Source of the DNA: Heterodontus francisci
Taxonomy: Eukaryota
Assembly (NCBI RefSeq): GCF_036365525.1
Contig: NC_090383.1
Coordinates: 53,857,378 to 53,921,377 of the forward strand
Length of the DNA: 64,000 bases
Reading direction: 5' to 3'
Part shown: positions 6,730 to 40,782 of the stretch, in pieces
Layout of the letters: every line of letters begins with the position of its first letter
Position numbering within the stretch: position 1 is the first letter of the stretch
Notes under the pieces: generated by a model
Seen by the model: the letters and a program-made list of their open reading frames with translations, nothing else
Told to the model about the DNA's origin: nothing
The model's database searches: none
Made by a program: the position numbers and the translations under genes

Positions 6730-6909
6730 CGACGATGGACATTATTGTTGCAATCATTAGAAAGGCATAAAAGATGCTCAAAACTGCAGCAATATTGATC
6801 TGGGTATCTGATTTGACTTTGTAACAGATCAGTATGTAGATGGCAGGAGGAATGATGCCAAGGGCCAGAGCAACATTTCCATTCCATTTAAACACAAAGG
6901 TAAATGCTC
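6730..6909 (-). CDS. chs: CHS-A exon 12 (post-catalytic TM helices)
   Basis: GAFTFVFKWNGNVALALGIIPPAIYILICY...FLMIATIMSIV; cag| and |gtgagt boundaries; phase 1/1. Confidence 0.9.
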
Positions 6910-9900
6910 CTGTAAAAGTTAATGTTTCGTAAAAAATTATCTGCATTATATTAAAAACATATTATTAAGACGGGATAAAACAAAGAACAAATTTATCCAA
7001 TAAGCATTCTTATACCAGTCTTATGACTTTAGTATTAATCAATATTTGAAATATCATATTTGGAGACTTTCCTACTTTTCATTCACCAATGCCAAGCATA
7101 GTCTTTTCGAGATGTGTTAGACCAGTTAGGAATATCCTCAAAGTTACTCACCCTGGGACACCTTAACTTCACCGGAAACAAATTTTTCATTGCACCTCTG
7201 GCAAAATTAAGATGGCAAAGTGGGAGCAACTTGAAGGCAGTTTCTGGCCCATGATTCGATCACCACCCTTGCCTTTTCCACTTTTGCTGCTTGGTGTCCA
7301 TTTCCCACCACTGCCAACACCACCCCCCCCCCCCCCCCCCCCACCTCTCTGTGACACTCTGTGGGGTGTTTTTCTATATTAAAGCTATTGTATAGTGAAA
7401 TTTGTTACTGTTGTCGACTTGGTTCACTTTGCTGCAGTAATGTGTATCGGCTCTGACCTTCAGAGGGCACCCTCTCCCAGCAAACAACATTGATGGTTTG
7501 ACATGATACATGGTTTTGGTGTGAGTGAAATTCTTTACCAAGTGCTCGGTGGCCATTGACTGACTGCATGAAAATGTGTTTGGTAAACTTGTTGGGCTGA
7601 ATTCTGGTGGGCCGCACGCCAAAGAGACACTGCGATTCCAGGCCATTTTTAAAGGGCAGTCAGCCCTACCAGGACATTTAAATATTGAAAGTGAAACTGA
7701 TCTAAATTTAATAGACACATCTCATTTGACCCTCTCCCCCCACCATATAACAATTAAATTATTTATTTTCCCTTTCCCCACCATAACACTGACCTTTATT
7801 ATCTGACCTTCCCCCCCAACAACTGCACAAATGTTAAACTATCACCCTTCCCACCATCCCCTACATCCATGACATTAATTTGGCCCTGACCCCCACCTCC
7901 CACACTGAGGAACTGACCTCGTCCCCCCTCCCCACCAATGTTGCACCTCATTTCCCCAGACGGGGATCCGAAGACACAGCACTGCTGGCTGGCGGGATGA
8001 AGATCACAGCGGGACGTCATGAGGAGATGGGAGATTCATTAATGCAAGTATTTTAATTTATTTACATATTTAGATTGCCTTCCCTTTGCAGAAAGGCTGG
8101 GGGCCGCCACAAGGCCTCGCCCCACCAGCAATATCGGGCCGGGCCCTGCCGGTGTCGAGGTTTGTGGCAGGTCTCATCCGGGGCCATCTTCAGCACCGCC
8201 CCCAGCCATGGATCCCGACACTGAGTGCTCTATACCATCCAGCCCATTGTGTTTGTCTGGCAGTAATGAAAATCCATGATGATGACAGGTGCAAATGACA
8301 CCATTATGTGTTTCAGTCTGATGTATGACAATACACCACATAGTAAACTGGCAATCCTACATTCCCAGTTGGGAACCTTGCTTGACCGGAATGGAGGGCT
8401 GAGGAGTTGGTGCTGCAGGTTGGTAGGCAATTTACACTCCAATCAAGCAATATTTCTTGTTGGGAGCACAGGATTGCTGAATTTACCCTCATGTGTTTGT
8501 AAGCAAATCAGACAAGGTTTGCCAAATCATTTTTTTTTAAATGAAAACTGTGACCTTTGGTGTGATTCTGAATGTTGGACAGTTTGGGGTGTGTATCCCC
8601 ATGAGGCTGTATAGAAATAGCAGAAATCTCTAATGGTATCATTCATTTCTGCGACTGAACCCGAAGGCCGTCTGGCATCTAAGATACTATATTATTATTT
8701 TGACAGTTCCTGATGCAGCACATCAGTGGATGACTATGTATCGGCACAGCCTTCACTGATGCAGAAACTTGCACACTCACTATTTGGGGCAAAGAAAGCT
8801 TGTGTTGCTTCATTTGTGTGCAGCTAAATACGATCACTGATACATTTGTGGCACTGATACTATTTTAAGATAACATTGCAGAAATTTCACAATATGATAC
8901 AGAAAAGCACAGTAACCTGCTATCATCAAAACCACAGTGGCAGGGCCCAGAATTGATGCTGCTGTTCCAATAATCTGGAACAGAATGTAGAGTTTTGAAA
9001 TTGAGGGGTTCTTCCTGGACGTTTGTGCTCCACTGTTTAGAAGGTCGATTGTATTTGCCAAAGTCGATGCTCCCCAGCGGCGTCGTTGATTGTAGAATTC
9101 GTTGAACTCCTGTGGTGCGTTTGTGTAGGCATCTGAAGCTGCGTTGTATTCTACACGCCAGCCCTGCTGTAGTAATAATGTACACAGCCAACGGTCTTCT
9201 CCTGTTGGAATTGATTGGTGCATATTTCTGTAAAAGGTGCGTACTAGCCCATCATACTAAGACCAATCGTTTAAATCATTCAAAAATGTGAGATTCTCTT
9301 GATACAAAGAACATCCCTGCCTTCAGTAAAATATGCATCCTAGGTGATTCATATACTAAACAATTAGTGCATGGTTAAACTAATTGTACAATCACACATA
9401 TGGTATAATTGGTCCTTTTTGACTGATTGTTCCTGACTGTAGCTCATTATTACAAGGTGACAGTGAATGATGGCTATGGAAACTTGATGTCGTCGCCTCA
9501 GTAGTTCACTGATTATTTTTTCCAAATAAAGCTTTCCCTGTCCTACCGAGACATGTCCTCATACACATGAGGTAGAATTACCACATGGGCTTGCCCAATC
9601 TCCCACCATACATTTGATGGAAGAACGGCAAAACCTTCTTCAAAATAACAAACAGCCATTTACACTATTCCCTCCAATCGCCTGCCAGGGTTGTGGCGGG
9701 AGATCTGTGGAAATTCTAGCCCACTGTAGAAGTGAAAGTCAGCAGATTTCATACTTTAGTTTTACCTTGATCATATTGGACAAAATGTTGAGCTTCAGTT
9801 GCTTTGGTGGTGTATTTTTTCACAACATTATCATCCAATAGAGCTGCTGCCCTGAACAAACTGAAGCATCCTGGACTACACAGTACGCATCCCAACACAT

Positions 9901-12900
9901 GTTCAGCTGTCTTCTGCAGCCAGTGACCAATGGCGTATTCAAACTTCTGGTACCAGACCACAGGACCTTTGAGAGGAAGGAGGTTACAAAATGTACACTT
10001 TACAGTTCAGCCATATTTATAAAATTTGATGACTTGCCATAAGAAAATATGGAACAAAGACAGACATTTTGTTGATCAAGCCTGCGTGTTCCAAAATCAA
10101 CCTTACCATGGGACTGTACCCTGTCTGAGGAGAAACTCTGGGCCGGATTTTAAGCGTGGTAGCGGGCAAAAAAAATGGTGGCCTGCACGCCCGGGCTGCG
10201 TGTCAGTGATATCTTCTGTGCGGAAGCACATTTAAATATTCCAGTCGGTCCGCCCACCCCCCCCACCCCCCCCCCCAATCACATGGAGGGGGTGGGAACG
10301 CTGACGCCAGCAAAGGCATCAGCTGCCTGTGTGCAGGCACTGGTGCCATTTATAAAAAGCAGCCAGCCCTGTTGGCTAATTTAAATTTTTAAAGAGATAC
10401 CCCCAACCACCGCCCGCCCCCCAACCCCCGCCACAATGTACCGAGTAAAATTTTAATGCCCCTTTCCCACCCCCCAATAATAAAATTCAAGTATCTGCCT
10501 TCACCGCCCCCAAACACTTACCTTACAAATGAGACCTCCCTGCACCCTCCCCTGAATGTGCAAAGTTCACCCCTTCCTACCATCCCCTACACTGATGACG
10601 ATAATTTGACCCTGTCCCCACCCCCCACATTAAAAATCTTACGTTCTCCCCTTCCCCACTAGTATCGCGCCCGCTTTCCCCTGACGGGGAAGTGAAGGCA
10701 TGGGAGTGCTGGCCACCACTCTGAAGATCGTGGCAGGCCTGTAAGATGGCAGGTAATTATATTTTAATGTATTAATTTTATTCATTAACATATTTATATG
10801 CAAGTGTCGTCGCCCAGTGATGGTGGGGCTGCCATGGAGCCCTGCCACTGCCAGGATAATCGGTCCTGACCCTCCTGGAGTCAGGCTCCATGGCAGGTCA
10901 CTGTCGGAACAATCTTCCGGCCCCCCACCCCCTGTCACGGTGCCCAACTTCGGGGGCCCTGTAAAATCCAGCCCTCTCTGTCACTCTCTGATCCCTAAAG
11001 TTAGTCATGCATCATTGCATATCATCTATGGGTTTTGAATGACAGTCTCAGTGAGTATTCTTCAATCTGATTGGTTGAAGAGACTCACTTGCCCTGCTCA
11101 CATATGCTGCAGATATCCTGTAGAGGTTGCCAGGCTGAAAATGCTCTCTAAATACTGTAAATTGCTGCTCAAAAGCCCACAGAAAGCTGGACGGCTGTAA
11201 ATATAATAAATGGCGATTGCCATTCCTTCATCACTGCCTGAGAAATTCGGACCATTGGCATTTTTAAAACATTCACAATAACAAAAACCTTTCTTTTATT
11301 TGGATCAAATGCTTGCCCAATTATCGTAATCAAAATGTTAAAATAAAAAGGAAAACCATCTTCAGCTGCTTCATCAATGACCTTCCTTCAATCATAAAGT
11401 CAGAAGTGGGGATTGTTTGCTGATGATTGCACAATGTTCAGCACCATTCGTCACTCCTCAGATACTGAAGCAGTCTGTGTAGAAATGCAGCAAGACCTGG
11501 ACAATATCCAGGCTTGGGCTGATAAGTGGCAAGTAACATTCATGCCACACAAGTGCCAGGCTATGACCATCTCCAACAAGAGAGAATCTAACCATCTCAC
11601 CATGACATTCAATGCATTACCATCACTGAATCCCCCACTATCAACATCCTAGGGGTTACCATTGACCAGAAACTGAACTGGGATAGCCATATAAATACCG
11701 TGGCTACAAGAGCAGGTCAGAGGCTAGGAATCCTGCTGCAAGTAACTCACCTCCTGACTCTCCAAAGCCTGTCCACCACCTACAATGCACCAGTCAGGAG
11801 TGTGATGGAATACTCTCCACTTGCCTGGATGGGTGCAGCTCCAACAATACTCAAGAAGCTCAACACCAGCCAGGACAAAGCAGCCTGCTTGATTGGGTCC
11901 CCCTCCACAAACATTCACTCCCTCCACCACTGCCCCCAAACCCCCTCCGGTTAAATCTGAAATCAGCATGTTCATGGTAGGTGAGGTTAGGTTTCCCATT
12001 TAAATCTCACCCCAGCCACTCTCTAGGCCATCCTGACAGGTTAATTTCCCTGCCTACGTACTCATCTGCCTCCAAGTTTGCAGTAGCTGAATTTATTGTG
12101 CAATTAATTATATACAAGTAAAAAAAAATGACAGGATTTAAATGCTCTGATTTTAAACAATTTCCAGTCTTTCTCCAAAAATATTTTTTTTAAATGAATA
12201 AACACAAAAAGTAGATACTCGAAAAATAATAACCTGTAATGGAACTTAGAATTACAGAATCTTTTAGCTGATGTTTTTATTCATTTACTGCCCTATGTTG
12301 TATAGATGGAGATAACTGGTGAGTTGTTTTAATTCACAGTTTTAATATTTTACTTAAACTGCAAATGACAGTGGCAGCACCAGTTTCTTCATCTCACGAA
12401 CACATTGATATTAATGGTATGTAGCAATTTAAGATCCTGTCTTGTTTTTTTTGTGCTATGTATACTGCGAAATGAAGATACGTAAATAAATAGCTAGAGA
12501 GCTAAAGATAACTTCATACCAGTTCCAGTTGGATGTATTCTACCACATGCAGCCCCGACATGTGGATATCTTCTAAGCCTGTCAACTAACAAGATCACAG
12601 CTGAGGGTTGGAAGTCAGTGTCCCCATCCAAAGCCAGAATGTAAGTGTTTTCCTTCTCAGTCTTTCAAACAAAATAAAAACATAAAAAGTGAGATCTATA
12701 ATGCTCTTGAATAGAAAAGTCAGAAACTTACTGTGCATGATGGAAGCATGTATAACATTCCTATTTACTAGAGACATAAAGGCCCTGATATTGACAGGAA
12801 CGGGTTTGGCATGCAGGGGACAGGAGGCAGAGTTTTGGACAGGATTCACGGAAACCTGTTTTTCTTTGACAGGATCCCCTCCCAGAAGTCAGCCTGAACA

Positions 12901-15900
12901 AAAGACTTGACTTCCAGGTGGGTGGCAAGCAAGCATGAGGAGGTAAGAAGAAGCATGCAGCTGCTACTAGGAGTGTTTTGGGAGGGAGCTGGGAGCAGTC
13001 TGATCCCCACTCCGGGCGAGAGATGGAACCCATGGGAGCGTTCAATCCTTCAGGTGGGGAGTGTCTGATTCCTGATCCCAGGTGGATTTGATCCCCTACC
13101 TTGGATGTCTTTGTATGAGGGGGAGGGGACTGATGGTGGGGGTGCTGATCCAAGGAAAGAAAGTAAGCGTGGGGCAGGGGGAAGCATTCGTGCTCCTCCT
13201 GGCCTCAAGCAGTACTGCAAAACTTCTCTCCAAAGATGCCCTCACCTAACCATGAACTGTCTGAGTTTCCCAGACCTTGGGGAAACCTTTCAGCCAGGCT
13301 TTAATGGCTACCAGCCTCATTAAAATATTTAAATTACTCACCCACTCCCTGAGAGAAGGTTGGCAGCCCACTCCTTGTCCCATCTCCGTTAATCCCAAAA
13401 TGTGGGGGTTGGAGTCAGGTTTGAAATTTTTAATGTTTCAACAGCTTACTTGACTCAACCCCACCTGTTTTGGGGGGTTAAATTTCACCCCTAACACAAA
13501 GATATTAATACCTCAGTTAAAATACCAGACAGAGAGAAACACACTGCGTATCTATACACTGCTATCACACATCATCATTTTGAGGCACTAGAGAGCAGAA
13601 GTGATTCTTTACTTTTAAGGCATTTGCAGTTGGCGTTTCATCTTCAAATTTGCCTAATAAGGTAATGTGCTTTCTCTTTAACTTCCATCCCAGCAGATAA
13701 TACATGTACATGGTCTGAAAAGAAATATACAATATATCAATAAAGAATGCTAGCATACACAGGGCAGGCCAATTCATAGAATATTCCCCTACTGCTGCTG
13801 TAGTCATGCTATTCAACTCATGAAATGTTATATAACTGAGTCAGAGTGCACAAAGATGAATCTCATGCCTCGGATCCAGTTGATCATGGGCTCAGATCTC
13901 AAAATACGTCTCAAGCTCCTCTTTTGCTTTGAAGCTGAGTTTTTCCAGTTTCCAACCAAGTTACTAACAGAGTCCAGGAGCCAGAAATATCTGAATAGGC
14001 TTCAAATTTAGATCTCCAATACTTTTTGTGCACCAGACCTTGAGATTTCAAAAGAGACTTACTACTAATATGAACATTGAGAACCAAAGGCAGCTTTGAT
14101 CTCAAGTGTCAATAGGGAACCATTTGCAGACTACTAAATCTATTGTTGCCGCTCACCACTTGACTATTTTAAATTGGGCACAGATTATCTCTTCTGCATG
14201 CAGCTGCCCTGAACACCTTGAGCATCCCAAATTCCCAACAGCATGCCCAATCAACCTCCTGGAAATCAGAGCCACAGCTAAAGCACTCGGAGGGTGGAAT
14301 TCCGGAGCGGTAAGTATAAAAAAAACTTACCTCGGAGATTCTTGGAGTAGACTTGGAGGGCGGAGTTCCAGAGCGGTAAGTTACCTCGGGTGGGGAAAAT
14401 AAAACTGAAAAAGTGACGTCACAGGAAAGCTGTGACCTGATTGGCTGGTAGGGAATCTGTACCAAATTTGAAAATAAAACTGATAAAAAATGATTAAAAC
14501 ACTAATTAACTAATTAATAAGTAGAGTAGCTAAACCAGAGGGAGGAGATTACTGTATTTAGATAGCATTTAGTATTGTAGAAATCTAGCACTAGGGACCA
14601 CATAGTTAAGTGTATCATAATTTAGTAAGGATTTAATAAGTACATAATTATTTTATATTAATTAACTAATTAGTGCTAGAAATGACAGTTAGAGGGGTGA
14701 AGTGCTTCACCTGTGAGATGTGGGAGGTCCGTGACGCTTCCAGCGTTCCGGGCGACTCCATCTGCAGGAAGTGTACCCAATTGCAGCTCCTCACAGACCA
14801 CATGGATCGGTTGGAGCGGCAACTGAATGCACTTAGGAGCATGCAGGTGGCAGAAAGCGTCATAGACAGGAGTTTTAGAGAAGTGGTTACACCCAAGGTG
14901 CAGGCAGATAGATGGGTGACCACTAGAAGGGGCAGGCAGTCAGTGCAGGAATCCCCTGTGGCTATCCCCCTCTCTAACAAGTATACCGTTTTGGATACTG
15001 TTGGGGGGGATGGCCTATCAGGGGAAAACAACAGCAACAGCCAGAGCAGTGGCACCACGGCTGGCACTGTTGTTCAGCAGGGAGGGACAAAACGCAGAAG
15101 AGAAATAGTTATAAGGGACTCTATAGTCAGGGGCACAGATAGGTGCTTCTGTGGACGTGAAAGAGACTCCAGGATGGTATGTTGCCTCCCTGGTGCCAGG
15201 GTCAAGGATGTCTCTGAACGGACAGGGGCATTCTGAAGGGGAAGGGTGAACAGCCAGAGGTTGTGGTACACATCGGTACCAATGACATAGTCAGGAAGAG
15301 TGATGAGGTCCAGCAGGGGGAGTTTAGGGAGTTAGGTAGTAAGTTAAAAAACAGGACCTCTAGGGTTATACTCTCTGGATTACTCCCTGTGCCACGTGCC
15401 AGTGAGGCTAGAAATAGGAAGATAGTGCAGTTAAACACGTGGCTGAGCAGCTGGTGTAGAAGGGAGGGTTTCAGATATCTGGACCATTGGGCTCTCTTCA
15501 GGAACAGATGGGACCTGTACAAGAAGGACGGGTTGCATCTAAACTGGAAGGGCACTAATATCCTGGCTGCAAGGTTTGCTAGCGTCACTCGGGAGGGTTT
15601 AAACTAGTGTGGCAGGGGGGTGGGAACCAGAGCAGTAGGACAGCTAGTGAAATAAATGAGGAGGACATAGTAAATAAGGCCAGTAGGACTAAGAGGAAGA
15701 GCAGGCAGGGAGATGTTGCTGAGCACAGCGGGACTGGTGGTCTGAAGTGCATTTGTTTCAATGCAAGAAGTATAACAGGTAAGGCAGATGAACTTAGAGC
15801 TTGGATTAGTACTTGGAAATATGATGTTGTTGCCATTACAGAGACTTGGTTGAGGGAAGGGCAGGATTGGCAGCTAAATGTTCCAGGCTTTAGAAGCTTC

Positions 15901-18900
15901 AGGCGGTATAGAGGGGGATGTAAAAGGGGTGGGGGAGTTGCATTACTGGTTAAGGAGAATATCACAGCTGTACTGCGGGAGGACACCTCGGAGGGGTCAT
16001 GCAGCGAGGCAATATGGGTGGAGCTCAGGAATAGGAAGGGTGCAGTCACGATGTTGGGGGTTTACTACAGGCCTCCCAACAGCCAGCGGGAGGGAGAGGA
16101 ACAGATATGTAGACAGATTTTGGAAAGATGTAAAGGTAACAGGGTTGTGGTGGTGGATGATTTTAATTTCCCCAATATTGACTGGGACTCACTTAGTGCT
16201 AGGGGCTTGGATGGGGCAGAATTTGTGAGGAGCATCCAGGAGGGCTTCTTGAAACAGTATGTAGATAGTCCAACTAGGGATGGGGCCATTCTGGACCTGT
16301 TATTGGGGAATGAGCCTGGCCAGGTGGTCGAAGTTTCAGTGGGGGAACATTTCGGGAGCGGTGACCATAATTCCATAAGTTTTAAGGTACTTGTGGATAA
16401 GGATAAGAGTAGTCCTCGGGTGACGGTGCTAAATCGGGGGAAGGCTAATTATAACAATATTAGGCAGGAACTGAAGAATTTAGATTGGGGGTGGCTGTTT
16501 GAGGGTAAATCAACATCTGACATGTGGGAGTCTTTCAAACGTCAGTTGATTAGAATCCAGGACCAGCATGTTCCTGTGAGGAAGAAAGACAAGTTTGGCA
16601 AGTTTCGGGAAGCTTGGATAACGCGGGATATTGTGAGCCCAGTCAAAAAGAAAAAGGAAGCATTTGTAAGGGCTGGAAGGCTAGGAACAGATGAAGCACT
16701 TGAGGAATATAAAGACAGTAGGAAGGAACTTAAGCAAGGAGTTAGGAGGGCTAAAAGGGGTCATGAAAAGTCATTGGCAAGCAGGATTAAGGAAAATCCC
16801 AAGGCTTTTTATACATATATAAAGAGCAAGAGGGTAACCAGGGAAAGGGTTGGCCCACTCAAGGACAGAGATGGGAATCTATGTGTGGAGCCAGAGGAAA
16901 TGGGCGAGGTGCTAAATGAGTACTTTGCATCAGTATTCACCAAAGAGAAGGACTTGGTGGATGATGAGCCTAGGGAAGGGAGTGCAGATAGTCTCAGTCA
17001 TCTCATTATCAAAATGGAGGTGGTGTTGGGTGTCTTGCAAAGCATTAAGGGAGATAAGTCCCCAGGGCCTGATGGGATCTACCCTAGAATAGTGAGGGAG
17101 GCAAGGGACGAAATTGCTGGGGCCTTGACAGAAATCTTTGCATCCTCATTGGCTACAGGTGAGGTCCCAGAGGACTGGAGAATAGCCAATTTTGTGCCTT
17201 TGTTTAAGAAGGGTGGCAAGGATAATCCAGGAAATTATAGGCCGGTGAGCCTTACATCAGTGGTAGGGAAACTATTAGAGAGGATTATTTGGGACAGGAT
17301 TTACTCCCGTTTGGAAACAAACGAACTTATTAGCGAGAGACAGCATGGTTTTGTGAAGGGGAGGTCGTGTCTTACTAATTTGATTGAGTTTTTTGAGGAA
17401 GTGATGAAGATGATTGATGAAGGAAGGGCAGTGGATGTTATCTATATGGACTTTAGTAAAGCCTTTGACAAGGTCCCGCATGGCAGACTGGTACAAAAGG
17501 TGAAGTCACACGGGATCAGAGGTGAGCTGGCAAGATGGATACAGAACTGGCTCGGTCATCGAAGACAGAGGGTATCAGTGGATGGGTGTTTTTCTGAATG
17601 GAGGGATGTGACTAGTGGTGTTCTGCAGGGATCAGTGCTGGGACCTTTGCTGTTTGTAGTTTATATAAATGATTTGGGGGAAAATGTAGCTGGTCTGATT
17701 AATAAGTTTGCGGACGACACAAAGGTTGGTGGAGTTGCGGATAATGATGAGGATTGTCAGAGGATACAGCAGGATATAGATCGGTTGGAGACTTGGGCAG
17801 AGAAATGGCAGATGGAGTTTAATCCGGACAAATGTGAGGTAATGCATTTTGGAAGGTCTAATGCAGGTGGGAGGTATACAGTAAATGGCAGAACCCTTAG
17901 GAATATTGACAGGCAGAGAGATCTGGGCATACAGGTCCACAGGTCACTGAAAGTGGCAACGCAGGTGGATAAGGTAGTCAAGAAGGCATACAGCATGCTT
18001 GCCTTCAATCAGTCGGGGCATAGAGTATAAAAATTGGCAAGTCATGTTGCAGCTGTACAGAACCTTAGTTAGGCCACACTTAGAATATTGCGTGCAATTC
18101 TGGTCGCCACACTACCAGAAGGACGTGGAGGCTTTGGAGAGAGTAAAGAGGAGGTTTACCAGGATGTTGCCTTGTCTGGAGGGAATTAGCTATGAGGAGA
18201 GGTTGGAAAAACTCAGATTGTTTTCACTGGAATGACGGAGATGGAGGGGCGACATGATAGAGGTTTACAAAGTTATGAGCGGCATGGACAGAGTGGATAG
18301 TCAGAAGCTTTTTACTCGGTTGGAAGAGTCAGTTACTAGGGGACATAGGTTTAAGGTGCGAGGGGCAAAGTTTAGAGGGGATGTGCGAGGCAAGTTTTTT
18401 ACACAGAGGGTGGTGAGTGCCTGGAGCTTGCTGCCAGGGGAGGTGGTGGAAGCAGATACGATAGCGACATTTGAGAGACATCTTGACAAATATATGAATA
18501 GGATGGGAATAGAGGGATATGGGCCCCGGATGTGCAGAAGGTGTTAGTTTAGGCAGGCATCAAGATCGGCGCAGGCTTGGAGGGCCGAATGGCCTGTTCC
18601 TGTGCTGTACTGTTCTTTGTTAATTGGACACAGTTCTAAAAAAAATGACCAGAATAATAAAAGGATAATTGAGAAAAGAGCCAGAGGAGCGATAGGGTGA
18701 ATATTTTTTTATGCAGCATGTTGTTGTGTATGCATGGCCTGAACGGTTGATGGAAGCAGATTCAATAATAACTTTCAAAATGGAATTGCATGCTTGGAAA
18801 GGAAAATTTGCAAGGCTATGGGGAAAGAGCAAACAAGTGGAACGAATTCGATAGCTCTTTCAGATAGCTAACACAAGCACCATAGGCTAAATGGCCTCCT

Positions 18901-21900
18901 TCTGCGCTGTATGATTCCATGATTTTACATAAAGTCAGCTTTTATTGTAATAGCTCTGCAGCCTGCTTGAAGGCATTTACCATGATTTATCATGATATTG
19001 AAAATGGCAGTGTCCTCAGACAAATGGCCATTGAGAATGTATGGTGCAAATAAAGTTAGCATACCAAGTCAAACCTCATGCTTTTCAAGTTGGCAAAATT
19101 GGCTATTATTATTGAATCTTCAATGTTACAGTTGGAATCACTTGAGGATACCTAAACCTATCCAGATCTTACACTCTTTTATTGTTTACTCTTCAGTGGG
19201 CTATTATCCTGTAAATACAGTAGCTGAACAGCTACAAACTTAAACTGAACTGAATAAAAACACCGTCAACAATGTTATTTACCAGAAGGCTTATTGCCAG
19301 ATGATATCTTCTTACAGGTAGCAGCACACACCTAAATGAAAAGCTTACTATGCATTTTATTTACTTACAAAGTGACAGAAATTCAAAACTCCCATGAAAC
19401 TCACTACAAACTGTCATGGTATTGTACTAAGACTGTATAAAAGAGGAAGTGGTTTGTCAATATAATTATTAACAATGAGAATTACAGCTACTGCCCATTG
19501 TGGAAAAATATATTTTAGATTTGTTATGTTTATTTTTATGTCAGCCATATTTCAGTGAAGAACTTTCTTTGATGTCTCTGTTATCTTAGAAAATGGGTAT
19601 CATAAGTTCTGTAAGTTATTAAACTGCTTCAGGCTATATTTCCTGCACAAAGAAAAGTTTATCTTTTCCTACAGTAAAAAGATTCAGTAATGTAAATAGG
19701 AGGGGAGTGCAACACTTAAGAGGAATTGCTGAAAATAGAGACATGTTGTCAAAGCTTTTCGTCTTGCACTCTTCAGGGCAATGCGCAAGAATAACCAATG
19801 TAAATGTAATGTAATGTAATTTCCACTAACAGGATGCTGCCCTCAAGCCAAAAAGACGTCCTGCCTATCACACAAATGAGTCATGTGATAGATGAATTTC
19901 AACGCTGGTGTGATGCTAGGTATATAGGTCATAGGTCCCAAAGACTGGTGGATCGTATCAAACAATATGGCCCCTCCACTGTTCGCAATGGACAAGGTAC
20001 AGGCCGTACCCAACCAGCCCGTGCTTGCAAAACTCAAAACAGTGTCCAACATTAGATGTGATTCCGTGATTGGACAATATTTGCTAAATAATCCGCAATG
20101 TGCTAAGAATTACGCTTACAACCAATTTAAGATTGTCAGTAGGGCTCACCGTGTGGTACATTTGCGCGTATTAGAAGTTACATATATTAATACACAGGGC
20201 CCTGTTCTTTGCAGACAGAAAGAGCATGTACCTACATTACGCCTGTTTCAGCTGAACAAAATAAGTGACGGCCATTTGCTGGCTCATTCCGCAGGGCAAT
20301 GCCTTGACCAATCAGAGTCAAGCTGCCTGGTTTAAATTTCAAACAAAGCTTGGCAGTTAACTGTCAGTCACCATAAACTGATGTATTCGCCATGACAACG
20401 TCTCTACCAATCAGAGTTCACTTGCCAACCAATCAGCATTCTCTTCTCAAGCAGTATAATTTGTTGTTTTCCCTTACATTGGTTATTCTTGCATATTGTC
20501 CTGATGAGTGCAAGACAAAAAGCTTCGACAACATGTCTCTATTTTCAGCAATTCTCAAGTTCTGTACTACCAAACAACTACATGAGAGGAACCTAGTACA
20601 TAGTCTCAGAGCACCACGAAAAAGTCTGTTTTAAAGCACCAGACGATCATATATTTGACATTGTGCCGTATCAGTCTGCACACTTAGGAATGATTTCTGC
20701 TTCACATTTCTATTTGTATGGCCTACATTAATTTTATGCCGTGTTCATTATTTAAACGTACTTGAGACCATCTCTTCTTGTGTCGAATTTTCTGCTTGTC
20801 TTTCAAATGAACATACAGTGTGTTTCCATACGGAAGGGTGTAGCTAATTCTTCCACCATAAGGCGTCTCCATTATGGTTTGCTTTACCATGTCATCATCT
20901 TCCTGTTCATCCTCGGAAGTCTGTTTTTCACGTGAAAATATCCTGAATGATAAAAGGTTTAATTCCAAACATTTAACTGCAGGTCCCTTCTGGAAATTGG
21001 AATCCATCTTATTTTATTCCTCAGCAGTGTGACAGATACATGTTACATACTCTCATGGAACTGCAGCATACTTGTCGTTGCAACTGCATGTTCACACAAC
21101 TCCTAAAACTATTTCAATACTATTTCTTTTCCATTTCTGATTTCCTTTTTTACTTCCCTTCTGAACTTTCTATATTTAGTTGTATCACCAGTCTGACATC
21201 TGTCGGCATTGGGGCGGCACAGTGCGCAGTGGTTAGCACCGCAGCCTCACAGCTCCAAGGACCCAGGTTCGATTCTGGGTACTGCCTGTGCGGAGTTTGC
21301 AAAGTTCTCCCTGTAACCGTGTGGGTTTTCGCCGGGTGCTCCAGTTTCCTCCCACAGCCAAAGACTTGCAGGTTGATAGGTAAATTGGTCATTGTAAATT
21401 GCCCCGAGTGTAGGTAGGTGGTAGGGAATATGGGATTACTGTAGGGTTAGTATAAATGGGTGGTTGTTGGTCAGCACAGACTTGGTGGGCCAAAGGGCCT
21501 GTTTCAGTGCTGTATCTCTAAATAAATAAATAACAACCTCTTTTCTGCTTCATCTTATTCTCTACTCGCTACCTCTCTTGTTATCCAGGGAGCTCTGGCT
21601 TTAGTTGTCCTACTTTTCACCCTCCTTGAAATCTACTTTGTACGCAAACCATGTCCTCGTTAAAGACAGCCCACCGTTCTGTTACAGTTTTAGGAACATA
21701 GGAGCAGGAGTAGGCCATTCAGGCCCTCGAGCCTGCGCCACCATTCAATTAGATCATGGCTGATCATCTACTTCAATGCCATTTTCCTGTGCTGTCCCCC
21801 TATCCCTTGATGTCATTAGTATCCAGATATCTATTGATTTCTGTCTCGAACATGCTCAATGATTGAGCTTCCACAGCCTTCTGGGGTAGAGAATTCCAAA

Positions 21901-24900: not shown

Positions 24901-27900
24901 GGCTACCTGATCAGCAGACCAAGTCCAGTCTTCACACTGAGGATACCCCCAATCATGTTGTGCGGCACTTACCACTGTGCTAAATGCGATAGATTCAGAA
25001 CAGATCTAGTCGCTCAAAACTGGGCATCCATGAGGTGCTGTGGGTCATCAGCAGCAACAGAATAGTAGTAATGGTAATGGTGATCTGCCCAAGGGCAGGT
25101 CCTCTGCTCATTTTTCCAAGCCTCATGATCCTTCACTTTCCTCTTCAGTTGCTCCTCAGAGCCTCCCATTGTTTCACTTCCATGAGAAATGAGAAATATG
25201 ACTTGGGAAAATGTACATGAGGTGGTTTCCCATTGCCTTTCTCATGTGTACTTTAAAGGAAACACAAATGCTTTTCCCGAAGGATCCTCCACCTGTAAGC
25301 AGCCATTGTCCCTCGAGGATCTAGCTCTTCCACTATCACCACCTACAATTCTCTGGTTCTGCCATTGGCCGTGACTCATGACCCTGAACATGGGAATTGT
25401 ATTCAACCAGAATTTGTATTCTCATGGCCTGACATATTCCTCACTCTACCACTACCATCAAGCCAGGGGATCAACCGTGGTTCAAGTAGGAGTGCAGGAG
25501 AGCATGCCAGGAACAGCATCAGCATCAAAATATGAGGTGGTAACTTGGTGAAGCTACAGCACAGGACTACATGCATGCTAAACAGCAGAAGCAGCATATG
25601 ATACACAAAGGAATGCAATCCCACAACTAATGGATCAGATCAAAGCTCTGCAGTCCTGCAACATCCAGTCGTAAATGGTAGTAGACATTACAACCACTAA
25701 CCAGAGGAGGAGGCTCCACAAACATCCCCATACTCAACAACTTTGGAAAGTGTGAAAATAGATAAGTCCCCTGGGCCAGATGGGATTTATCCTAGGATTC
25801 TCTGGGAAGCCAGGGAGGAGATTGCAGAGCCTTTGACCTTGATCTTTATGTCGTCATTGTCGACAGGAATAGTGCCGGAAGACTGGAGGATAGCAAATGT
25901 TGTCCCCTTGTTCAAGAAGGGGAGTAGAGACAGCCCTGGTAATTATAGACCTGTGCGCCTTACTTCGGTTGTGGGTAAAATGTTGGAAAAGGTTATAAGA
26001 GATAGGATTTATAATCATCTTGAAAAGAATAAGTTCATTAGAGATAGTCAGCACGGTTTTGTGAAGTGTAGGTCGTGCCTCACAAACCTTATTGAGTTTT
26101 TTGAGAAGGTGACCAAACAGGTGGATGAGGGTAAAGCCATGGATGTGGTGTATATGGATTTCAGTAAGGCGTTTGATAAGGTTCCCCACGGTAGGCTATT
26201 GCAGAAAATACGGAAGTATGGGATTGAAGGTGATTTAGTGCTTTGGACCAGAAATTGGCTAGCTGAAAGAAGACAGAGGGTGATGGTTGATGGCAAATGT
26301 TCATCCTGGAGTTTAGTTACTAGTGGTGTACCGCAAGGATCTGTTTTGGGGCCACTGCTGTTTGTCATTTTTATAAATGACCTGGATGAGGGTGTAGAAG
26401 GGTGGGTTAGTAAATTTGCGGATGACACGAAGGTCGGTGGAGTTGTGGATAGTGCCGAAGGATGTTGTAGGTTACAGAGGGACATAGATAGGCTGCAGAG
26501 CTGGACTGAGAGATGGCAAATGGAGTTTAATGCGGAAAAGTGTGAGGTGATTCACTTTGGAAGGAGTAACAGGAATGCAGAGTACTGGGCTAATGGGAAG
26601 ATTCTTGGTAGTGTAGATGAGCAGAGAGATCTTGGTGTCCAGGTACATAAATCCCTGAAAGTTGCCACCCAGGTTAATAGGGCTGTTAAGAAGGCATATG
26701 GTGTGTTAGCTTTTATTAGTAGGGGGATCGAGTTTTGGAGCCACGAGGTCATGCTGCAGCTGTACAAAACTCTGGTGCGGCTGCACCTGGAGTATTGCAT
26801 GCAGTTCTGGTCACCGCATTATCGGAAGGATGTGGAAGCTTTGGAAAGGGGGCAGAGGAGATTTACTAGGACGTTGCCTGGTATGGAGGGAAGGTCTTAC
26901 GAGGAAAGGCTGAGGGACTTGAGGTTGTTTTCGTTGGAGAGAAGGAGGAGGAGAGGTGACTTAATAGAGACATATAAGATAATCAGAGGGTTAGATAGGG
27001 TGGATAGTGAGAGTCTTTTTCCTCGGATGGTGATGGCAAACACGAGGGGACATAGCTTTAAGTTGAGGGGTGATAGATATAGGACAGATGTCAGAGGTAG
27101 TTTCTTTACTCAGAGAGTAGTAGGGGCGTGGAACGCCCTGCCTGCAACAGTAGTAGACTCGCCAACTTTAAGGGCATTTAAGTGGTCATTGGATAGACAT
27201 ATGGATGAAAATGGAATAGTGTATGTAGGTCAGATGGTTTCACAGGTCGGCGCAACATCGAGGGCCGAAGGGCCTGTACTGCGCTGTAATGTTCTATGTT
27301 CTAATGGAGAAACCCAGCACCGTCAGTGCAAAAGACAAGGCTGAAGAATTTTCAACCATCTTCAGCCAGAATTGCCAAATGGATGATCCTTCTTGGGATA
27401 CCTGCTAAGATTCCTGGAATCACAGATGCCAGTCTTCAGCTAATTTGATTTACTTTGCATGATATCAAGAAATGGCTGAAGGCACTGAATACAGCCAAGG
27501 CTTTGGGCCCTGACAACATCAGAGTTGAAGTGTTGAATGTGTGCTCCAGAATTAGTCGTGTGCCTAGCCAAGCCATCCCAGTACAGCTACAGCACCCCAC
27601 AATGTGGAAAATTGCCCGTGTACATCCAATCTACAAAAAGCAAGACAAATCCAATCCGGCCAATTAGCGCTTTATCAGTCTACTTTCAATCGTCAGCAAA
27701 GTGATGGAAGGTGTCATGGACAGTGCTATCAAGCAGCACCTACTCAGCAATAACCTGATAACCGATGCTCAGTTCAGGTTCCGCCAGGGCCATTCATAGT
27801 CGTTTGGTAGTGGAGAACTTGAGTGTTCCTGAAAATAGAAACATATTGTTAAATCTTTTCATCTTGCACTCATCAGGACAATCCGCAAGAATATCAATGT

Positions 27901-30900: not shown

Positions 30901-33900
30901 GTAGCTTTGCACTCACATCGCCAGACCTCAGAAGGTTGTTGAAGTGCTTCCTACACTGCACCAAGGTCCTGCTGACCACATTGTAGTTGCTCACCTCCTG
31001 AGCGACCTCCATTCGAGCCTGCTTTGTCTGACTGGCTGGCTTCCTCCTGCCGCTCCCCAGAAACAGGACGCTCCTCCGAGCTGCCACCACCTCTAAAAGC
31101 ACCTTGAGGGAGGCATGTGCCTTTCCAACCATGCATGCCATGCTGTTGCTCCACTGCATTCAGGCCTCTGCCATCGCCCAGGATGTTGGCATTCACAGTT
31201 ATAGCAGCCAGTTGCCCTTTAAATTGGGCCTGCCATGATGAAGCCATGATGACACGCTGACTCTTCCACCCCTAATTTGGACAGTGAACGTGCCATCGGG
31301 GCACTAATTGGCTGCCTCCTTCAAAATACCATTGGACTTCCAGCACCGACAGGGAACAGGGTCAGGTCCCAGAAATGGTCCTGATGTCAGAGTCCCAACT
31401 CTGGAATGAAAATGCAGCCCACTCCCTCTGACTCCCAGCTTTCACCTGTTGGTCTCCAGCACTGTTTCCCCTCTGACTCACTCTCTCTGTCTCACAGAAT
31501 CACATTACAAAATTGATGGGGAACCTGGTGACATGGCTCCCTCCTCAAAGAAGGAGGATAATGAACAACCCACAACTGAAACGTGCTAAATAACTGATAA
31601 CCAATGAATATTCGCCCAGTAATGCTCAAAGTCACAGAATGAAAGATAGGTTTGAGAGATAAGTGGAATGGAGAAAAATATCAAAGGAGTCACATCTGGG
31701 CAGACCTTTAGTTGGACTGGTACAGAGGCACTGGAGGCAAACTTTGAGCTGGCAATTCATCTGACCGGAAGACAGCACAGCAATTAGAGTCAGGCACAAT
31801 GGAGATGGGAATAACTTCCCAGAGAGAAAAAAATAGCTTAACCACTTGATCAATATTCTAACTTTAATTTGCTCCCCCACCATAATAAGCAATAATTTGG
31901 GGCAGTCCACCTCCTCGCAGACAATCCTCCCTATTAATGAAGCTGCCATATCTGTAAAAACTGTTCAAGGGCCTGGATGCCGATGCTCCCTCCTTTTTTG
32001 CAGGATGTATTCCTCAGCAACACAACCAAAATTGGAGGGAAAGTATCACTGAACCCACATCCTGCTGTTAAAAGGCATTGTAACACCAACACACTCCAGA
32101 TCTTTCAAAGAAGCAGAAACAAAATCAAAGATCAGGGATTTACACTTGCAGACAGGGTTGTCACTGCACTTCTGTCAAAGTTACAGCAGCAGGGTGAAAT
32201 CAGGTGCAAGGAAATTGTTCGAAATCCTCACAATGTGGTGAGATGTTGTGCAAACGGACACCATACCAGACGAAAGCATTCACCTACATAAACAACCTTC
32301 AGCAATGACATTTAATTGTTACTATTGCTTTGTATAGAGAATACACAATGTTTGAACAGTAGCTGTTTGGTTAAAAACCTTGAAGGGAAACTTCCATATT
32401 GGTTTAGATGTTAGTGATAACATAAACTGGTTCCACAGGATTTACCTGAATATTGAAGTAAGGATCTTTCCCATTTCGTCCACTGTTTCATGCCACATTG
32501 TTGCACACAGATATATCATGACGTGGTCCGATTTCCTATTCAATAAATTGTTTTCATATTTTATTGTTACCAAATCTGTTCTAAATACTATACAATGCTA
32601 GGAATTCTTAGAAACTGTGATTATATAATTATATTTAGGTCAGTTAACCTTTCAGGAAATTACTTTTAAATTCCAATTATTTGGGAGACATTTTATGGGG
32701 ATAAATTTCCTAAGCTTTGCCCCCAGGGAATGCCTACTCCGCAGGTACAAAGGAAAAAGATGGAAGATCTCTAATACACCAGGTCCTCCCTAACCCTCTC
32801 TCCCACTTTACATTAACCCCAGATTTGGAGCTTCCCATTAGCTGGGCGTGCATCTGCTGTAGACACAGACCCTGCATTCAGATGTTAAAGCTGGCTTTGG
32901 TATTGAAGTCAGGATGTCCCTCATATCAGATGGTCAGAAAGTCCTGGCGGAAAGCCAAAGATTATTCCCAAAATTAGGAGCCATTTGTTAAAGCATCTGC
33001 CACATCTTTGAGTATTAGGATTGTCAGCTCTCGTTGGACGTAACCTGGAGAGTTCATCACCTGACCTCCCATCTCCAAGCACCTTGACCCCTCACTCCCT
33101 CTATTGGTTGGCTGGCCTGTCCATCTTCATGTCATCCCACCTTCCCATACCAATTGAATGCAAAGGATGAACCTTGGTCTTTTTACCATCTCTGATTTTT
33201 TCAATCTGTTCAACAAAGATTATTTCAGTGTCCTTATGCTTTTTCTCTTAGGTTACTTGGAGAAGTGTCCTGGGAATTAACCTTTAATTCTTGGAAACTC
33301 CAAGACATCCTTGGAAAACTGGAAACCCTCTTTGGTATTGGGGTCTTTCGGCTGTTACTGTTTAACAGCAGCCAGAAGGCCCCCAGCCTGCCAACTAGAC
33401 CCACAACTACAAGTCCCTGCACCTCTTTTTCCTGACCAGTACAAGGACCAATACCTGTCCTGCACAGAAGGCAGGCCTGTATCATGGGTATGACTGGACA
33501 GGCACAATGCTCTTCAAGCACACTGCACCTGTCCAGCACGCGAGCAGAAAGTGGCACCAGGAAATCAGGCTCTGTTTATATGAACTGGAACATTGTAATA
33601 TGTTCAATCTTCTAACTCCCACTAGAAATGATGAGAATGCAAGATTTGTTCTATTTAGCATCAACAAGTACATTTATTGGCGTTAATGCACTACATTTGT
33701 CATTTATAGTTGTCTGCTGCAATTAGATTAAATACAATTAGTTATAGCTGAATTACAGGATAGTCTACAGCTTCACACAATATCAATATTTTATCGAGGA
33801 AGAGTGAAATTGTTTGCATCCGACCAGCTCCATACTTCATAAATTACTCACTATCGATTCTGATGGTGCTTTTAGAGAAATGTACACAAGGAGATGTGTT

Positions 33901-39900: not shown

Positions 39901-40782
39901 GCATTTACTGACCTTGCTGAGAAAGATAAATCCCAGCACACAAACTCCAAAGATAAAGCAGACTGTATACTGCAGGAATCGCACAAATTTCCCAGTGACT
40001 TCTTCTTCATCATTTACTGTTTTAAACATAAACGGATCCCATGTTTTCCTGAAACTAAATTTTTTAAAAATATATAATATTGCACCTGCTGTACATTGGT
40101 CTTTGAAGATTAATCACTGTAAATGTAATGTTTGGTAATTTTTGTTTTCGGTAAAATTGCCTAATTTTTTACATGACATTTCAACTACAACACAATAATG
40201 ATGACTATTAATAGCTGAAGCACAGGAGATATTAAGATGAACAGTGCAAATCAGAATTTCTTTACAGTAGAGCATCTATTACACATTCTTGAAAACAACA
40301 ATATTCAACTTAAAATTCATTGCAATTAATTTGATTTAAAAAGAAAACCAATTATCACATAACCAAATATTAGGGTTTTATTTACTTTGCTATCGTAAAG
40401 GGATTTCTTTTATATTGTTTGGCAGTTTTTCTATGCCTTAGAGTATTTTTATGTAAAGGCCTTTCCCCTTCACACAATGCATCCAAAACTTGCAACTTTA
40501 CCTGGTAGCAGAATGTGTTGTTTCAAATAGACATGGTGCTCTAAAACGTACAATTACTTTTTTAATTTACCAAACCAGCTATAAAACCTGATATTTACTG
40601 TCAAATAGTTAGGGGCCAAATGCCAAATCACATTTCAAATATTTTACAGAATTATTTATATGTCTATCTGTGTATCATTTTTGGAAATAATAAATTAATA
40701 TCACATTAGTGAAATGAAAAACGATTTACCTGTTTCCGTACAATCTTTTTACCTCATTGATATCCTGATTTTTACTCTCCAT
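6730..40782 (-). CDS. chs: Chitin synthase CHS-A (multi-exon gene span; 12 exons in window, 3' end beyond left edge)
   Basis: Spliced exons 40782-40730, 40048-39913, 37473-37294, 35318-34282, 32535-32446, 24587-24414, 20942-20762, 13714-13613, 12661-12520, 9966-9766, 9201-8917 and 6909-6730 all have GT-AG boundaries and join in one open frame (2761 nt). Motifs present: WDPF, CATMWHET, FDDAF, TPYGG, HKKRWSQ, LDGD, QKFEY, CSPGCFSLFR, QYDQGEDRW, QRRRW. Confidence 0.95.
7594..8277. mobile_element. Degraded Harbinger-type MITE
   Basis: Starts gggctgaatt and ends aaaatcca; C-rich interior resembles 10140-10974 and 42660-43213. Confidence 0.5.
8917..9201 (-). CDS. chs: CHS-A exon 11 (EDR and QRRRW catalytic motifs)
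   Basis: GEDRWLCTLLLQQGWRVEY...FYNQRRRWGASTLAN...MIA. Confidence 0.96.
9766..9966 (-). CDS. chs: CHS-A exon 10
   Basis: PVVWYQKFEYAIGHWLQKTAEHVLGCVLCSPGCFSLFR...FVQYDQ. Confidence 0.95.
10140..10974. mobile_element. Non-autonomous Harbinger-type MITE
   Basis: TIRs gggccggatttt / aaaatccagccc; 3-bp TSD tct. Confidence 0.8.
11355..11930 (+). mobile_element. CR1-group LINE family 1 fragment (RT C-terminus)
   Basis: FADDCTMFS..MQQDLDNIQAWADKWQVTF; closely similar to 2476-3060. Confidence 0.85.
12520..12661 (-). CDS. chs: CHS-A exon 9 (DxD motif)
   Basis: TEKENTYILALDGDTDFQPSAVILLVDRLRRYPHVGAACGRIHPTGT. Confidence 0.94.
12780..13491. mobile_element. Probable Harbinger-type MITE
   Basis: Degenerate termini (ggccctgatatt / aaatttcacccc) flanked by taa. 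Confidence 0.4.
13613..13714 (-). CDS. chs: CHS-A exon 8
   Basis: TMYMYYLLGWKLKRKH...ALK; completes the WSQxMYMYYLLG motif. Confidence 0.88.
14673..15607 (+). pseudogene. CR1 ORF1 (Zn finger/leucine zipper plus SGNH esterase), one frameshift near 15230
   Basis: CFTC..CRKC, IRDSIVR (GDS-like), CLPGA, VHIGTND, DGLHL. Confidence 0.85.
15607..18547 (+). pseudogene. CR1 ORF2 (APE endonuclease and reverse transcriptase); 807-aa open stretch, then a frameshift and a stop
   Basis: CFNARS, ITETW, GVYYRPP, DFN, GDH; KSPGPDG, NYRPVSL, DFSKAFD, QGSVLGP, FADD. Confidence 0.92.
19746..19781 (-). ncRNA. Minimal type I hammerhead ribozyme motif (Penelope pLTR)
   Basis: Reverse strand ttgcc-CTGAAGA-gt gcaag ac-GAAA-agct-TT-gacaa: core intact, one stem I mismatch. 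Confidence 0.65.
20496..20531 (+). ncRNA. Minimal hammerhead ribozyme motif, core mutated
   Basis: ttgtc-CTGATGA-gt gcaag ac-AAAA-agct-TC-gacaa; GAAA is changed to AAAA. Confidence 0.55.
20762..20942 (-). CDS. chs: CHS-A exon 7
   Basis: IFSREK...ETPYGGRISYTLPYGNTLYVHLKDKQKIRHKKRWSQ|gtacgt. Confidence 0.94.
21211..21531 (+). mobile_element. tRNA-derived V-SINE (HE1-like) with CR1-derived tail
   Basis: A-box gcagtggttagc, B-box ggttcgattc, V-domain-like core, tail gggcctgtttcagtgctgtatctc(taaa)n. Confidence 0.85.
21690..22830 (-). mobile_element. Fragmented CR1 LINE pieces
   Basis: Reverse tail taggaacataggagcaggag; KCEINKFGRKN..LGILIHESLK; ORF1 esterase piece near 22650-22830. Confidence 0.75.
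24414..24587 (-). CDS. chs: CHS-A exon 6
   Basis: LDKYKP...FDFEVHVYFDDAF...VVNEYVKSLVCTIDKIY; phase 2/2. Confidence 0.92.
25741..27302 (+). mobile_element. Young 5'-truncated CR1 LINE (uninterrupted 533-aa RT ORF)
   Basis: ORF 25743-27344 with KSPGPDG..FADD; tail (aatgttct)(atgttct). Confidence 0.92.
27797..28985 (+). mobile_element. Penelope-like element with inverted pLTR and two hammerhead-like motifs
   Basis: YLKLPWKG..EFQCQCDA..IG (GIY-YIG-like); homologous to 19726-20584. Flanks are cagggccattca / cagggccgctca. Motifs at 27846-27881 (-) and 28926-28961 (+). Confidence 0.8.
32446..32535 (-). CDS. chs: CHS-A exon 5
   Basis: KSDHVMIYLCATMWHETVDEMGKILTSIF(R); carries the animal CHS signature CATMWHET. 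Confidence 0.93.
33016..33329. mobile_element. Possible hAT-like MITE remnant
   Basis: Termini resemble agggttgccaact / gttggcaaccct, but are degenerate. Confidence 0.3.
34282..35318 (-). CDS. chs: CHS-A exon 4 (N-terminal multi-TM region)
   Basis: 1037-nt open exon, VCLIEAVVAFG...SFNWWENF...RIERTSQLFVRRLYEAAFMEQSMLLN; donor AG|gtacag. Confidence 0.93.
35785..36780 (-). mobile_element. CR1-group LINE family 1, 3' fragment
   Basis: GVPQGSVLGPTIF..FADD and C-terminal ORFs at 35804-36781. Confidence 0.88.
37294..37473 (-). CDS. chs: CHS-A exon 3
   Basis: TSLLLLISTSNTQSPFANKPFTHLVLACALLVPNVLAFVKALWK...ILGM; 180 nt; cag| and |gtaagc boundaries. Confidence 0.9.
38010..38656. mobile_element. Partial LTR related to 56662-57573
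   Basis: Begins tgtcatgaccaggtgaggaaggggtctc, like tgttatgaccagatgagaaaggggtctc at 56662. Confidence 0.55.
38810..39195 (-). mobile_element. L2-type LINE RT fragment
   Basis: FHIYADDTQLYL..CLSDIQYWM..RNLGVTFD. Confidence 0.75.
39365..39756 (+). mobile_element. Deu-domain SINE (SacSINE1/AmnSINE1-like)
   Basis: tRNA-like head, core ..ttaaaccgaagcccc..aaaatatcccatggcactatt, tail gtgctttgggatg..gtgctatagaaat. Recognised from memory of this family. Confidence 0.6.
39913..40048 (-). CDS. chs: CHS-A exon 2
   Basis: Acceptor tttcag|G. Encodes KTWDPFMFKTVNDEEEVTGKFVRFLQYTVCFIFGVCVLGFIFLSK. Donor gtcagt. Confidence 0.88.
40730..40782 (-). CDS. chs: CHS-A exon 1 (start codon)
   Basis: ATG...MESKNQDINEVKRLYGN(R), then donor AG|gtaaat. 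Phase 2 matches exon 2. Confidence 0.7.

What the first reader, a model, noticed from the sequence alone, without database searches (positions are those of the whole stretch)
6730..40782. Intact-looking chitin synthase gene in a cartilaginous-fish genome
Seen in sequence: 12 exons join into about 920 open codons with every GT2 chitin synthase motif (CATMWHET, DGD, QKFEY, EDR, QRRRW), despite introns loaded with transposons. Established: chitin synthases are retained in fishes and amphibians and lost in amniotes, and chitin has been reported in the ampullae of Lorenzini of chondrichthyans. Inference: this is a functional enzyme under purifying selection, a candidate for electroreceptor gel, gut or skin chitin.
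Basis: partly seen in the sequence, partly recalled or inferred. Interest (0 to 1): 0.75.

Follow-up and report, generated by a model that had tools for sequence, protein, structure and literature searches.

The report
Shark chitin synthase gene in cluster
This is an intact shark gene for the enzyme that makes chitin, of a kind already known from sharks, rays, bony fishes and amphibians, and it is one of several neighbouring copies, some intact and some broken, so which copy works in which tissue is still open.

Summary
Observation confirmed. Twelve minus-strand exons (40782..6730) give 922 open codons with all five motifs; seven more exons left of the window complete a 1,219-aa protein with SWGTRE, 18 of 18 introns GT-AG. 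It is a chitin synthase by Pfam, PDB sequence and fold, not hyaluronan synthase. It is already in RefSeq as a horn shark 'chs-2-like' model, truncated at both ends, and orthologues occur across chondrichthyans. Purifying selection is supported: dN/dS 0.37 against a sister copy 349 kb away, though this copy has more changes at conserved shark sites (15 vs 4, post hoc). No spliced transcript was shown; tissue is untested. New context: all six catalytic-exon matches in the genome lie in one ~600-kb cluster of three lineages. Two A copies and one C copy are intact; three B copies are broken, one of them inside the window (46.5-62.8 kb, +). B and C recur in other elasmobranchs and may be older than the shark/bony-fish split (unresolved, p-AU 0.084). 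The ampulla, gut or skin role cannot be pinned on this copy.

The parts
40730..40782 (-). CHS-A1 exon 1 (ATG at 40782)
   Evidence: GT donor, phase 2; 14 of 15 residues match the Cetorhinus N-terminus
39913..40054 (-). CHS-A1 exon 2
   Evidence: absent from database model P0005
37294..37473 (-). CHS-A1 exon 3
   Evidence: absent from database model P0005
34282..35318 (-). CHS-A1 exon 4 (1,037 nt, hydrophobic helical N-terminal region; database model starts inside it)
   Evidence: only 7 nt differ from copy A2
32446..32535 (-). CHS-A1 exon 5 (CATMWHET)
24414..24587 (-). CHS-A1 exon 6 (YFDDAF)
20762..20942 (-). CHS-A1 exon 7 (TPYGG, KKRWSQ)
13613..13714 (-). CHS-A1 exon 8
12520..12661 (-). CHS-A1 exon 9 (DGD)
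9766..9966 (-). CHS-A1 exon 10 (QKFEY, LCSPGCF)
8917..9201 (-). CHS-A1 exon 11 (GEDRW, QRRRW; Ala812 where 153 of 154 vertebrate CHS have Pro)
6730..6909 (-). CHS-A1 exon 12; exons 13-19 continue left of the window (window coordinates -6866 to -21533)
46557..62769 (+). CHS-B3 pseudogene, head to head with A1; exon matches at 46557-46691, 52791-52979, 55472-56533, 60149-60241, 62581-62769; continues to about 99,200
   Evidence: deletions of 1, 1 and 4 nt at 55698, 56103, 56112 relative to copy B5; frame ends in a stop at 55714; further stops and shifts beyond the window
15583..18030 (+). LINE-like endonuclease/reverse-transcriptase open frame (815 aa) in intron 7
   Evidence: label from my reading of the translation
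25701..27344 (+). LINE-like reverse-transcriptase open frame (547 aa) in intron 5
   Evidence: label from my reading of the translation

Best explanation
The gene (A1) is one of two recent tandem copies of the conserved chondrichthyan chitin synthase (lineage A) and encodes a working 1,219-aa membrane-bound GT2 enzyme. Shown: intact frame, splice signals, motifs, fold, orthology, dN/dS below 1. From established knowledge of chitin synthases (recalled; the solved relatives are those): the cytosolic GT-A domain binds UDP-GlcNAc and Mg at the DGD region, the Asp of EDR (D770) is the catalytic base, the Trp of QRRRW (W810) lines the acceptor site, the SWG loop gates the channel, and the beta-1,4-GlcNAc chain is pushed through the enzyme's own membrane helices. 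Inferred by analogy only: it is expressed in a secretory epithelium, the ampullary canal wall (as in skate) and/or the gut (as in teleosts and Ciona), and supplies a chitin scaffold for gel or mucus. A1 has probably been under somewhat looser constraint than A2 since the duplication.
For: 1,213 codons with no stop over 18 exons plus a last exon with stop. Pfam Chitin_synth_2 96.6 bits. PDB sequence search: 6 of 7 hits are chitin synthases (E 7.5e-15 to 1.1e-7), hyaluronan synthase last at 9.1e-5. Fold search: ranks 1-19 as listed are all chitin synthases (rank 8 has a generic title but is named Chitin synthase 1), hyaluronan synthases start at rank 21. Trees put A1+A2 inside a clade with Callorhinchus, shark and ray CHS. 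A1 vs A2: 38 synonymous differences at 794 sites, 52 non-synonymous at 2,845, dN/dS 0.37; 0.26 in exons 6-11 (Fisher p 1.2e-5 and 2.6e-4). Flanking introns differ by about 8.6% (573 of 6,651 aligned sites in the flanks that passed my filter), exons by 2.5% (90 of 3,639). In simulated neutral substitution 11 of 600 (d 0.025) and 3 of 600 (d 0.04) frames stayed open. A1 departs from consensus at 5 of 325 vertebrate-conserved columns, the median for 154 proteins. CHS in situ signal in skate ampullary canal epithelium (10.1101/687301); gut expression in teleosts and Ciona (PMC10234404; PMC6109156).
Against: dN/dS is a pair value pooled over both copies; no outgroup DNA was available to split it by branch. 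A1 carries more derived residues than A2: 31 vs 19 (p 0.12), 15 vs 4 at columns where all or all but one of the chondrichthyan orthologues agree (p 0.019, criterion chosen after seeing the data). These include P812A two residues after QRRRW, seen in 0 of 154 vertebrate proteins and 0 of 126 motif occurrences in the representative hits. The RefSeq model of A1 is truncated at both ends while that of A2 reaches the C-terminus. No spliced transcript was demonstrated. The AlphaFold model is moderate (pLDDT 71, pTM 0.64) and covers the truncated database protein only.
Confidence: 0.78

Rival explanations
1. A1 is a redundant duplicate in early decay: the frame is still open, but A2 (and C1) do the work and A1 is weakly expressed or weakly active.
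For: 15 vs 4 derived changes at conserved shark columns; unique P812A; changed C-terminal residues in the last exon; truncated RefSeq model; neighbouring B copies from the same duplication are already broken.
Against: All 18 introns keep GT-AG and there is no indel against A2 over 3,639 nt; a neutral frame rarely stays open at this divergence; 5 of 325 conserved-column departures is the vertebrate median. If synonymous changes split evenly (my assumption), A1's own dN/dS is about 0.5.
Confidence: 0.14
2. A1 is a diverging duplicate with a new tissue or product (chain length, processivity); the extra substitutions are adaptive.
For: Changes near the catalytic motifs (I620T, M744L, P812A) and a group in exons 17-19; both copies are kept intact while B copies were lost.
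Against: Relaxed constraint explains the same counts; total asymmetry is not significant (p 0.07-0.12); exons 4-5, 12 and 15 are nearly identical between copies, with near-identical intron flanks beside some of them, which suggests homogenisation; no expression data.
Confidence: 0.06
3. A1 and A2 are one gene assembled twice (haplotype duplication), so the pair statistics mean nothing.
For: Same contig, same strand, 99% identity in the catalytic exon.
Against: Intron flanks differ by about 8.6%; intron lengths differ widely, e.g. 1,975 vs 8,946 and 7,047 vs 2,099 nt; 51 amino acid differences; no N gap in the 824 kb; neighbouring B copies show similar divergence, about 92%.
Confidence: 0.02

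Closest known systems
RefSeq XP_067901783.1, chitin synthase chs-2-like [Heterodontus francisci] (P0005, 923 aa)
   Different: The record starts at a Met inside exon 4 (lacks the first 144 residues) and leaves the gene after exon 14 for a short tail at window -10,430, missing exons 15-19. The genomic frame supports a full 1,219-aa protein.
Chondrichthyan CHS lineage A (Callorhinchus, Heptranchias, Cetorhinus, Scyliorhinus, Amblyraja, Leucoraja XP_055495972.1 and others)
   Same: 69-88% identity over the whole length, same clade.
   Different: Here duplicated into A1 and A2; A1 has lineage-specific changes such as P812A. Scyliorhinus canicula also has two A copies, which group with each other, so a separate duplication.
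LeCHS of little skate (Phillips et al., 10.1101/687301)
   Same: A chondrichthyan CHS expressed in ampullary canal epithelium where chitin probes bind (whole main text read).
   Different: The probe sequence is in a supplement I could not see, so whether it is lineage A, B or C is unknown; skates have both A and C.
Teleost and amphibian CHS; Ciona CHS
   Same: 51-53% overall identity for zebrafish, Xenopus and reedfish; the same motifs (PMC10234404 passages); gut chitin barrier role (PMC6109156 passages).
   Different: Gut expression is shown in those animals, not in this shark.
Solved chitin synthases (S. cerevisiae Chs1, C. albicans Chs2, P. sojae Chs1)
   Same: Best sequence and fold matches; QKFEY/QNFEY, EDR, QRRRW and SWG align.
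   Different: About 16-20% identity in the structural alignments; TM-score by query about 0.4; the long N-terminal helical region of the animal enzyme is not covered by the sequence matches.

Membership tests
Chitin synthase (GT2; Pfam Chitin_synth_2) | Pfam PF03142 above curated cut-off | tested here: met
   96.6 bits vs 27 on P0005; 34.6 bits on window exon 11 alone
Chitin synthase (GT2; Pfam Chitin_synth_2) | Catalytic motifs DxD, EDR, QRRRW and SWG(TRE) | tested here: met
   residues 665, 769, 806, 989
Chitin synthase (GT2; Pfam Chitin_synth_2) | GT-A core flanked by membrane helices, closest to solved chitin synthases | tested here: met
   model; fold search; no dedicated membrane-topology predictor was run
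Chitin synthase (GT2; Pfam Chitin_synth_2) | Makes beta-1,4-GlcNAc polymer from UDP-GlcNAc | not testable with these tools
   needs an enzyme assay
Animal (insect-type) CHS | CATMWHxT and QKFEY signatures | tested here: met
   residues 481 and 707; signatures as stated in PMC10234404
Chondrichthyan CHS lineage A | Groups with the Callorhinchus, shark and ray A proteins | tested here: met
   support 100 (FastTree) and 99 (IQ-TREE quick)
Hyaluronan synthase | Best sequence and fold matches are hyaluronan synthases | tested here: not met
   ranks below all chitin synthases; one of the 120 rows (P0116) is named 'Hyaluronan synthase 3' by one source but 'chitin synthase' by another and is 1,169 aa with CHS domains
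Functional (expressed) gene | Uninterrupted frame with canonical splice sites | tested here: met
Functional (expressed) gene | dN/dS below 1 | tested here: met
   0.37 for the A1/A2 pair; not split by branch
Functional (expressed) gene | Spliced transcript | tested here: inconclusive
   see Tried and rejected
Ampulla-of-Lorenzini chitin synthase (LeCHS orthologue) | Orthology to the skate probe and expression in canal epithelium | not testable with these tools
   probe sequence and catshark tissue tables lie in supplements that could not be read (bioRxiv supplements closed)

The most novel reading that the evidence does not exclude
Elasmobranchs keep a second, ancient chitin synthase lineage (B/C) in tandem with the ordinary one. 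It split before sharks and bony vertebrates parted, was lost from bony vertebrates, and serves a different chitin product (for example ampullary gel versus gut barrier). In this shark B has died in all three copies while A was duplicated and both copies were kept, with A1 diverging, giving a natural test of which lineage makes electroreceptor chitin.
Probability: 0.2. Interest if true: 0.6.

Novelty: already known. Interest (0 to 1): 0.3.

Why it matters
The gene itself is ordinary: vertebrate and chondrichthyan chitin synthases are known and this one has a public model. Two things are useful. First, a corrected full-length model. Second, the paralogue map: three elasmobranch lineages (A, B, C) that databases all call 'chs-1/2-like'. 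I found no description of this arrangement in the held library (searches; subscription journals and theses are largely missing, and the 2020 paper announced a fuller treatment elsewhere). The map makes the open question of what makes ampullary chitin testable with lineage-specific probes, and warns that one probe or one gene name cannot assign a tissue.

Tried and rejected
Expression: the look-up of sequencing runs on exon 4 listed 4 runs and no RNA holder on record. Laying those 4 runs on 32300-40900 was swamped by intronic repeats; none of the 15 joints shown (670 more not shown) joins exons. One X1 contig of 231 nt, depth 5, lies on 35100-35319 with 1 difference and leaves 11 letters unplaced at the exon 4 acceptor. 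That fits a splice to exon 3, but the letters were not shown, the run's RNA status is a guess and the organism is coded, so I count it as no verdict. Tissue tables: the catshark atlas paper (PMC11979771) has 0 mentions of chitin in its main text, its supplement was too large to read, and the preprint text also has 0. PMC9671328 passages use chitin only as a lectin-blocking reagent. Position of B/C: the free trees place it outside A plus bony-vertebrate CHS (support 96 in FastTree; 92, unstarred, with lamprey root), but a single chondrichthyan clade is not rejected (p-AU 0.084) and the B/C stem is long; the first full-length IQ-TREE run did not finish. Hyaluronan synthase: rejected. Haplotype artefact: rejected. 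Loss in amniotes was not tested; PMC10234404 states loss in mammals, the wider claim is recalled. The search of earlier findings returned nothing. My first splice attempt had off-by-one boundaries and gave false stops, corrected; likewise for A2, corrected. No complex prediction was run, as no binding claim is made.

Full report
Observation. A six-frame scan found the motifs on the minus strand where stated, and CHS-like motifs also on the plus strand near 60-63 kb. After fixing boundaries, 12 exons from 40782 to 6730 join into 922 codons without a stop, all introns GT-AG. The window is G000:C13:53857378-53921377. In the neighbouring DNA, exons 13-18 lie at window coordinates -6866 to -17693 and bring the frame to 1,213 codons, SWGTRE at 989. 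A 21-nt last exon with the stop begins at -21513. The protein is 1,219 aa over 19 exons and about 62 kb.

Identity. The catalytic exon is 100% identical to P0005, named by its source as chitin synthase chs-2-like of Heterodontus francisci, and the next single-domain hits are other sharks, rays and Callorhinchus at 91-94% (120 of 2,225 hits listed). P0005 is XP_067901783.1. It begins inside exon 4 and exits after exon 14 into a short tail at -10,430, so the public model is truncated at both ends. Pfam, PDB sequences and the fold of a predicted model (pLDDT 71) all rank chitin synthase above hyaluronan and cellulose synthases. Whole-length identity is 84-88% to four sharks (Cetorhinus, Heptranchias, Pristiophorus, Scyliorhinus), 81-83% to two carpet sharks, 74-79% to four rays, 69% to Callorhinchus and 51-53% to zebrafish, Xenopus and reedfish.

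The cluster. Two different catalytic exons each gave 6 matches in the 6-Gb assembly, all on C13 within about 600 kb (13 of 13 and 36 of 36 candidates scored). In window coordinates: C1 (-, about -182 to -292 kb), B2 (-, -113 to -164 kb), A1 (the finding), B3 (+, 46.5 to 99 kb), broken C-like fragments on both strands (109-153 kb), B5 (-, 252 to 168 kb) and A2 (-, 391 to 340 kb). A2 is intact (1,213 codons plus last exon) and is XP_067901787.1 (1,153 identities to my A2 model vs 1,109 to A1). C1 is open over 1,206 codons in exons 2-18, with one GC donor; I did not locate its first or last exon. All three B copies are broken: B3 has deletions at 55698, 56103 and 56112; B2 and B3 share a stop in the KKRW exon and a shift in the QKFEY exon and are 92-97% alike in inverted orientation; B5 has two stops in the matched segments, one in GEDRW. 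B2/B5 and A1/A2 are collinear at 87-95%. My inference: a tandem duplication of a (C)-B-A block, and a later inverted copy of the already broken B2.

Selection. A1 vs A2: dS 0.050, dN 0.0185, ratio 0.37; exons 6-11 0.26; without exons 4-5 0.42, each significantly below neutral. Intron flanks differ by about 8.6% after dropping flanks with under 250 aligned sites or over 25% mismatch and those of exons 15-18. Against the reading: A1 holds 31 derived residues vs 19 in A2 (1 ambiguous; 12 orthologues; p 0.12), and 15 vs 4 at near-invariant columns (p 0.019, post hoc). P812A is found in none of 154 vertebrate proteins. For the reading: A1 departs at only 5 of 325 vertebrate-conserved columns, two of them shared with A2, equal to the median. 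So A1 looks functional but is the faster copy. Exons 4-5, 12 and 15 are almost identical between copies, with some flanks at 1-2%, which suggests gene conversion and lowers dS there; this was not tested formally.

Lineages. No B/C protein of a bony vertebrate or holocephalan appeared among the listed rows, which is weak evidence. Trees separate A, B and C with high support. With lampreys as root, B/C falls outside A plus bony-vertebrate CHS at 92 (unstarred), but holding all chondrichthyan rows together costs only 8.2 log units, p-AU 0.084. The age of B/C is unresolved.

Mechanism. The enzyme chemistry is taken from established knowledge of processive GT2 chitin synthases (recalled) and from alignment to solved fungal and oomycete enzymes: all catalytic positions are present. 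The tissue is inferred only by analogy. Phillips et al. (10.1101/687301, whole main text read, supplement not seen) show chitin probes and CHS in situ signal in skate ampullary canals and say a detailed treatment of chondrichthyan CHS genes will be reported elsewhere. PMC8379299 (passages) proposes chitin as a scaffold in the gel. PMC10234404 (passages) and PMC6109156 (passages) show gut expression in teleosts and Ciona; the latter cautions that chitin-binding-domain staining is not specific. Tang et al. 2015 and Zakrzewski et al. 2014 were seen only as citations. Expression in this shark could not be shown (see Tried and rejected). Supplements I could not see (skate probe, catshark tissue tables) bear directly on the tissue claim.

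Verdict. The gene is already known and annotated, so interest is modest (0.3). What is added is a full-length model, a measured dN/dS and a three-lineage cluster with lineage B dead in this genome, which I did not find described in the library searches.

Noticed in passing
window 46557-62769 (+), continuing to about 99,200: Broken B-lineage chitin synthase head to head with the finding; an inverted copy of B2 that shares its lesions.
   Followed up: yes
G000:C13, window coordinates -182,191 to -292,256 (L057-L072): Apparently intact C-lineage chitin synthase (1,206 open codons, one GC-AG intron); no database protein for it appeared.
   Followed up: partly
G000:C13, window coordinates 390,953 to 339,625 (L038-L045): Intact sister copy A2; its RefSeq model XP_067901787.1 has a different N-terminus from the orthologue-supported exons 1-2.
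   Followed up: yes
window 34107-35416 and 6231-7032: A1 and A2 are 98-99% identical over these stretches including intron flanks, against 83-94% for most other aligned stretches; possible gene conversion.
   Followed up: partly
window 15583-18030 and 25701-27344 (+): Long LINE-like open frames in introns 7 and 5, absent from the aligned A2 introns, so probably inserted after the duplication.
   Followed up: no
window 45007-45135: Tandem repeat, 38-nt unit, 3.4 copies, between the starts of A1 and B3.
   Followed up: no
database proteins P0121 and P0007: Public models of shark CHS appear to include repeat-derived false exons; the P0121 N-terminus matches many scattered places in the region.
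   Followed up: no
P0013 and P0129: Scyliorhinus canicula has its own duplicate of lineage A, with one copy on a much longer branch (0.079 vs 0.010), the same kind of asymmetry as A1/A2.
   Followed up: no
window 40054 and 40048: Exon 2 has two in-frame AG acceptors 6 nt apart; the upstream one fits the orthologues.
   Followed up: no
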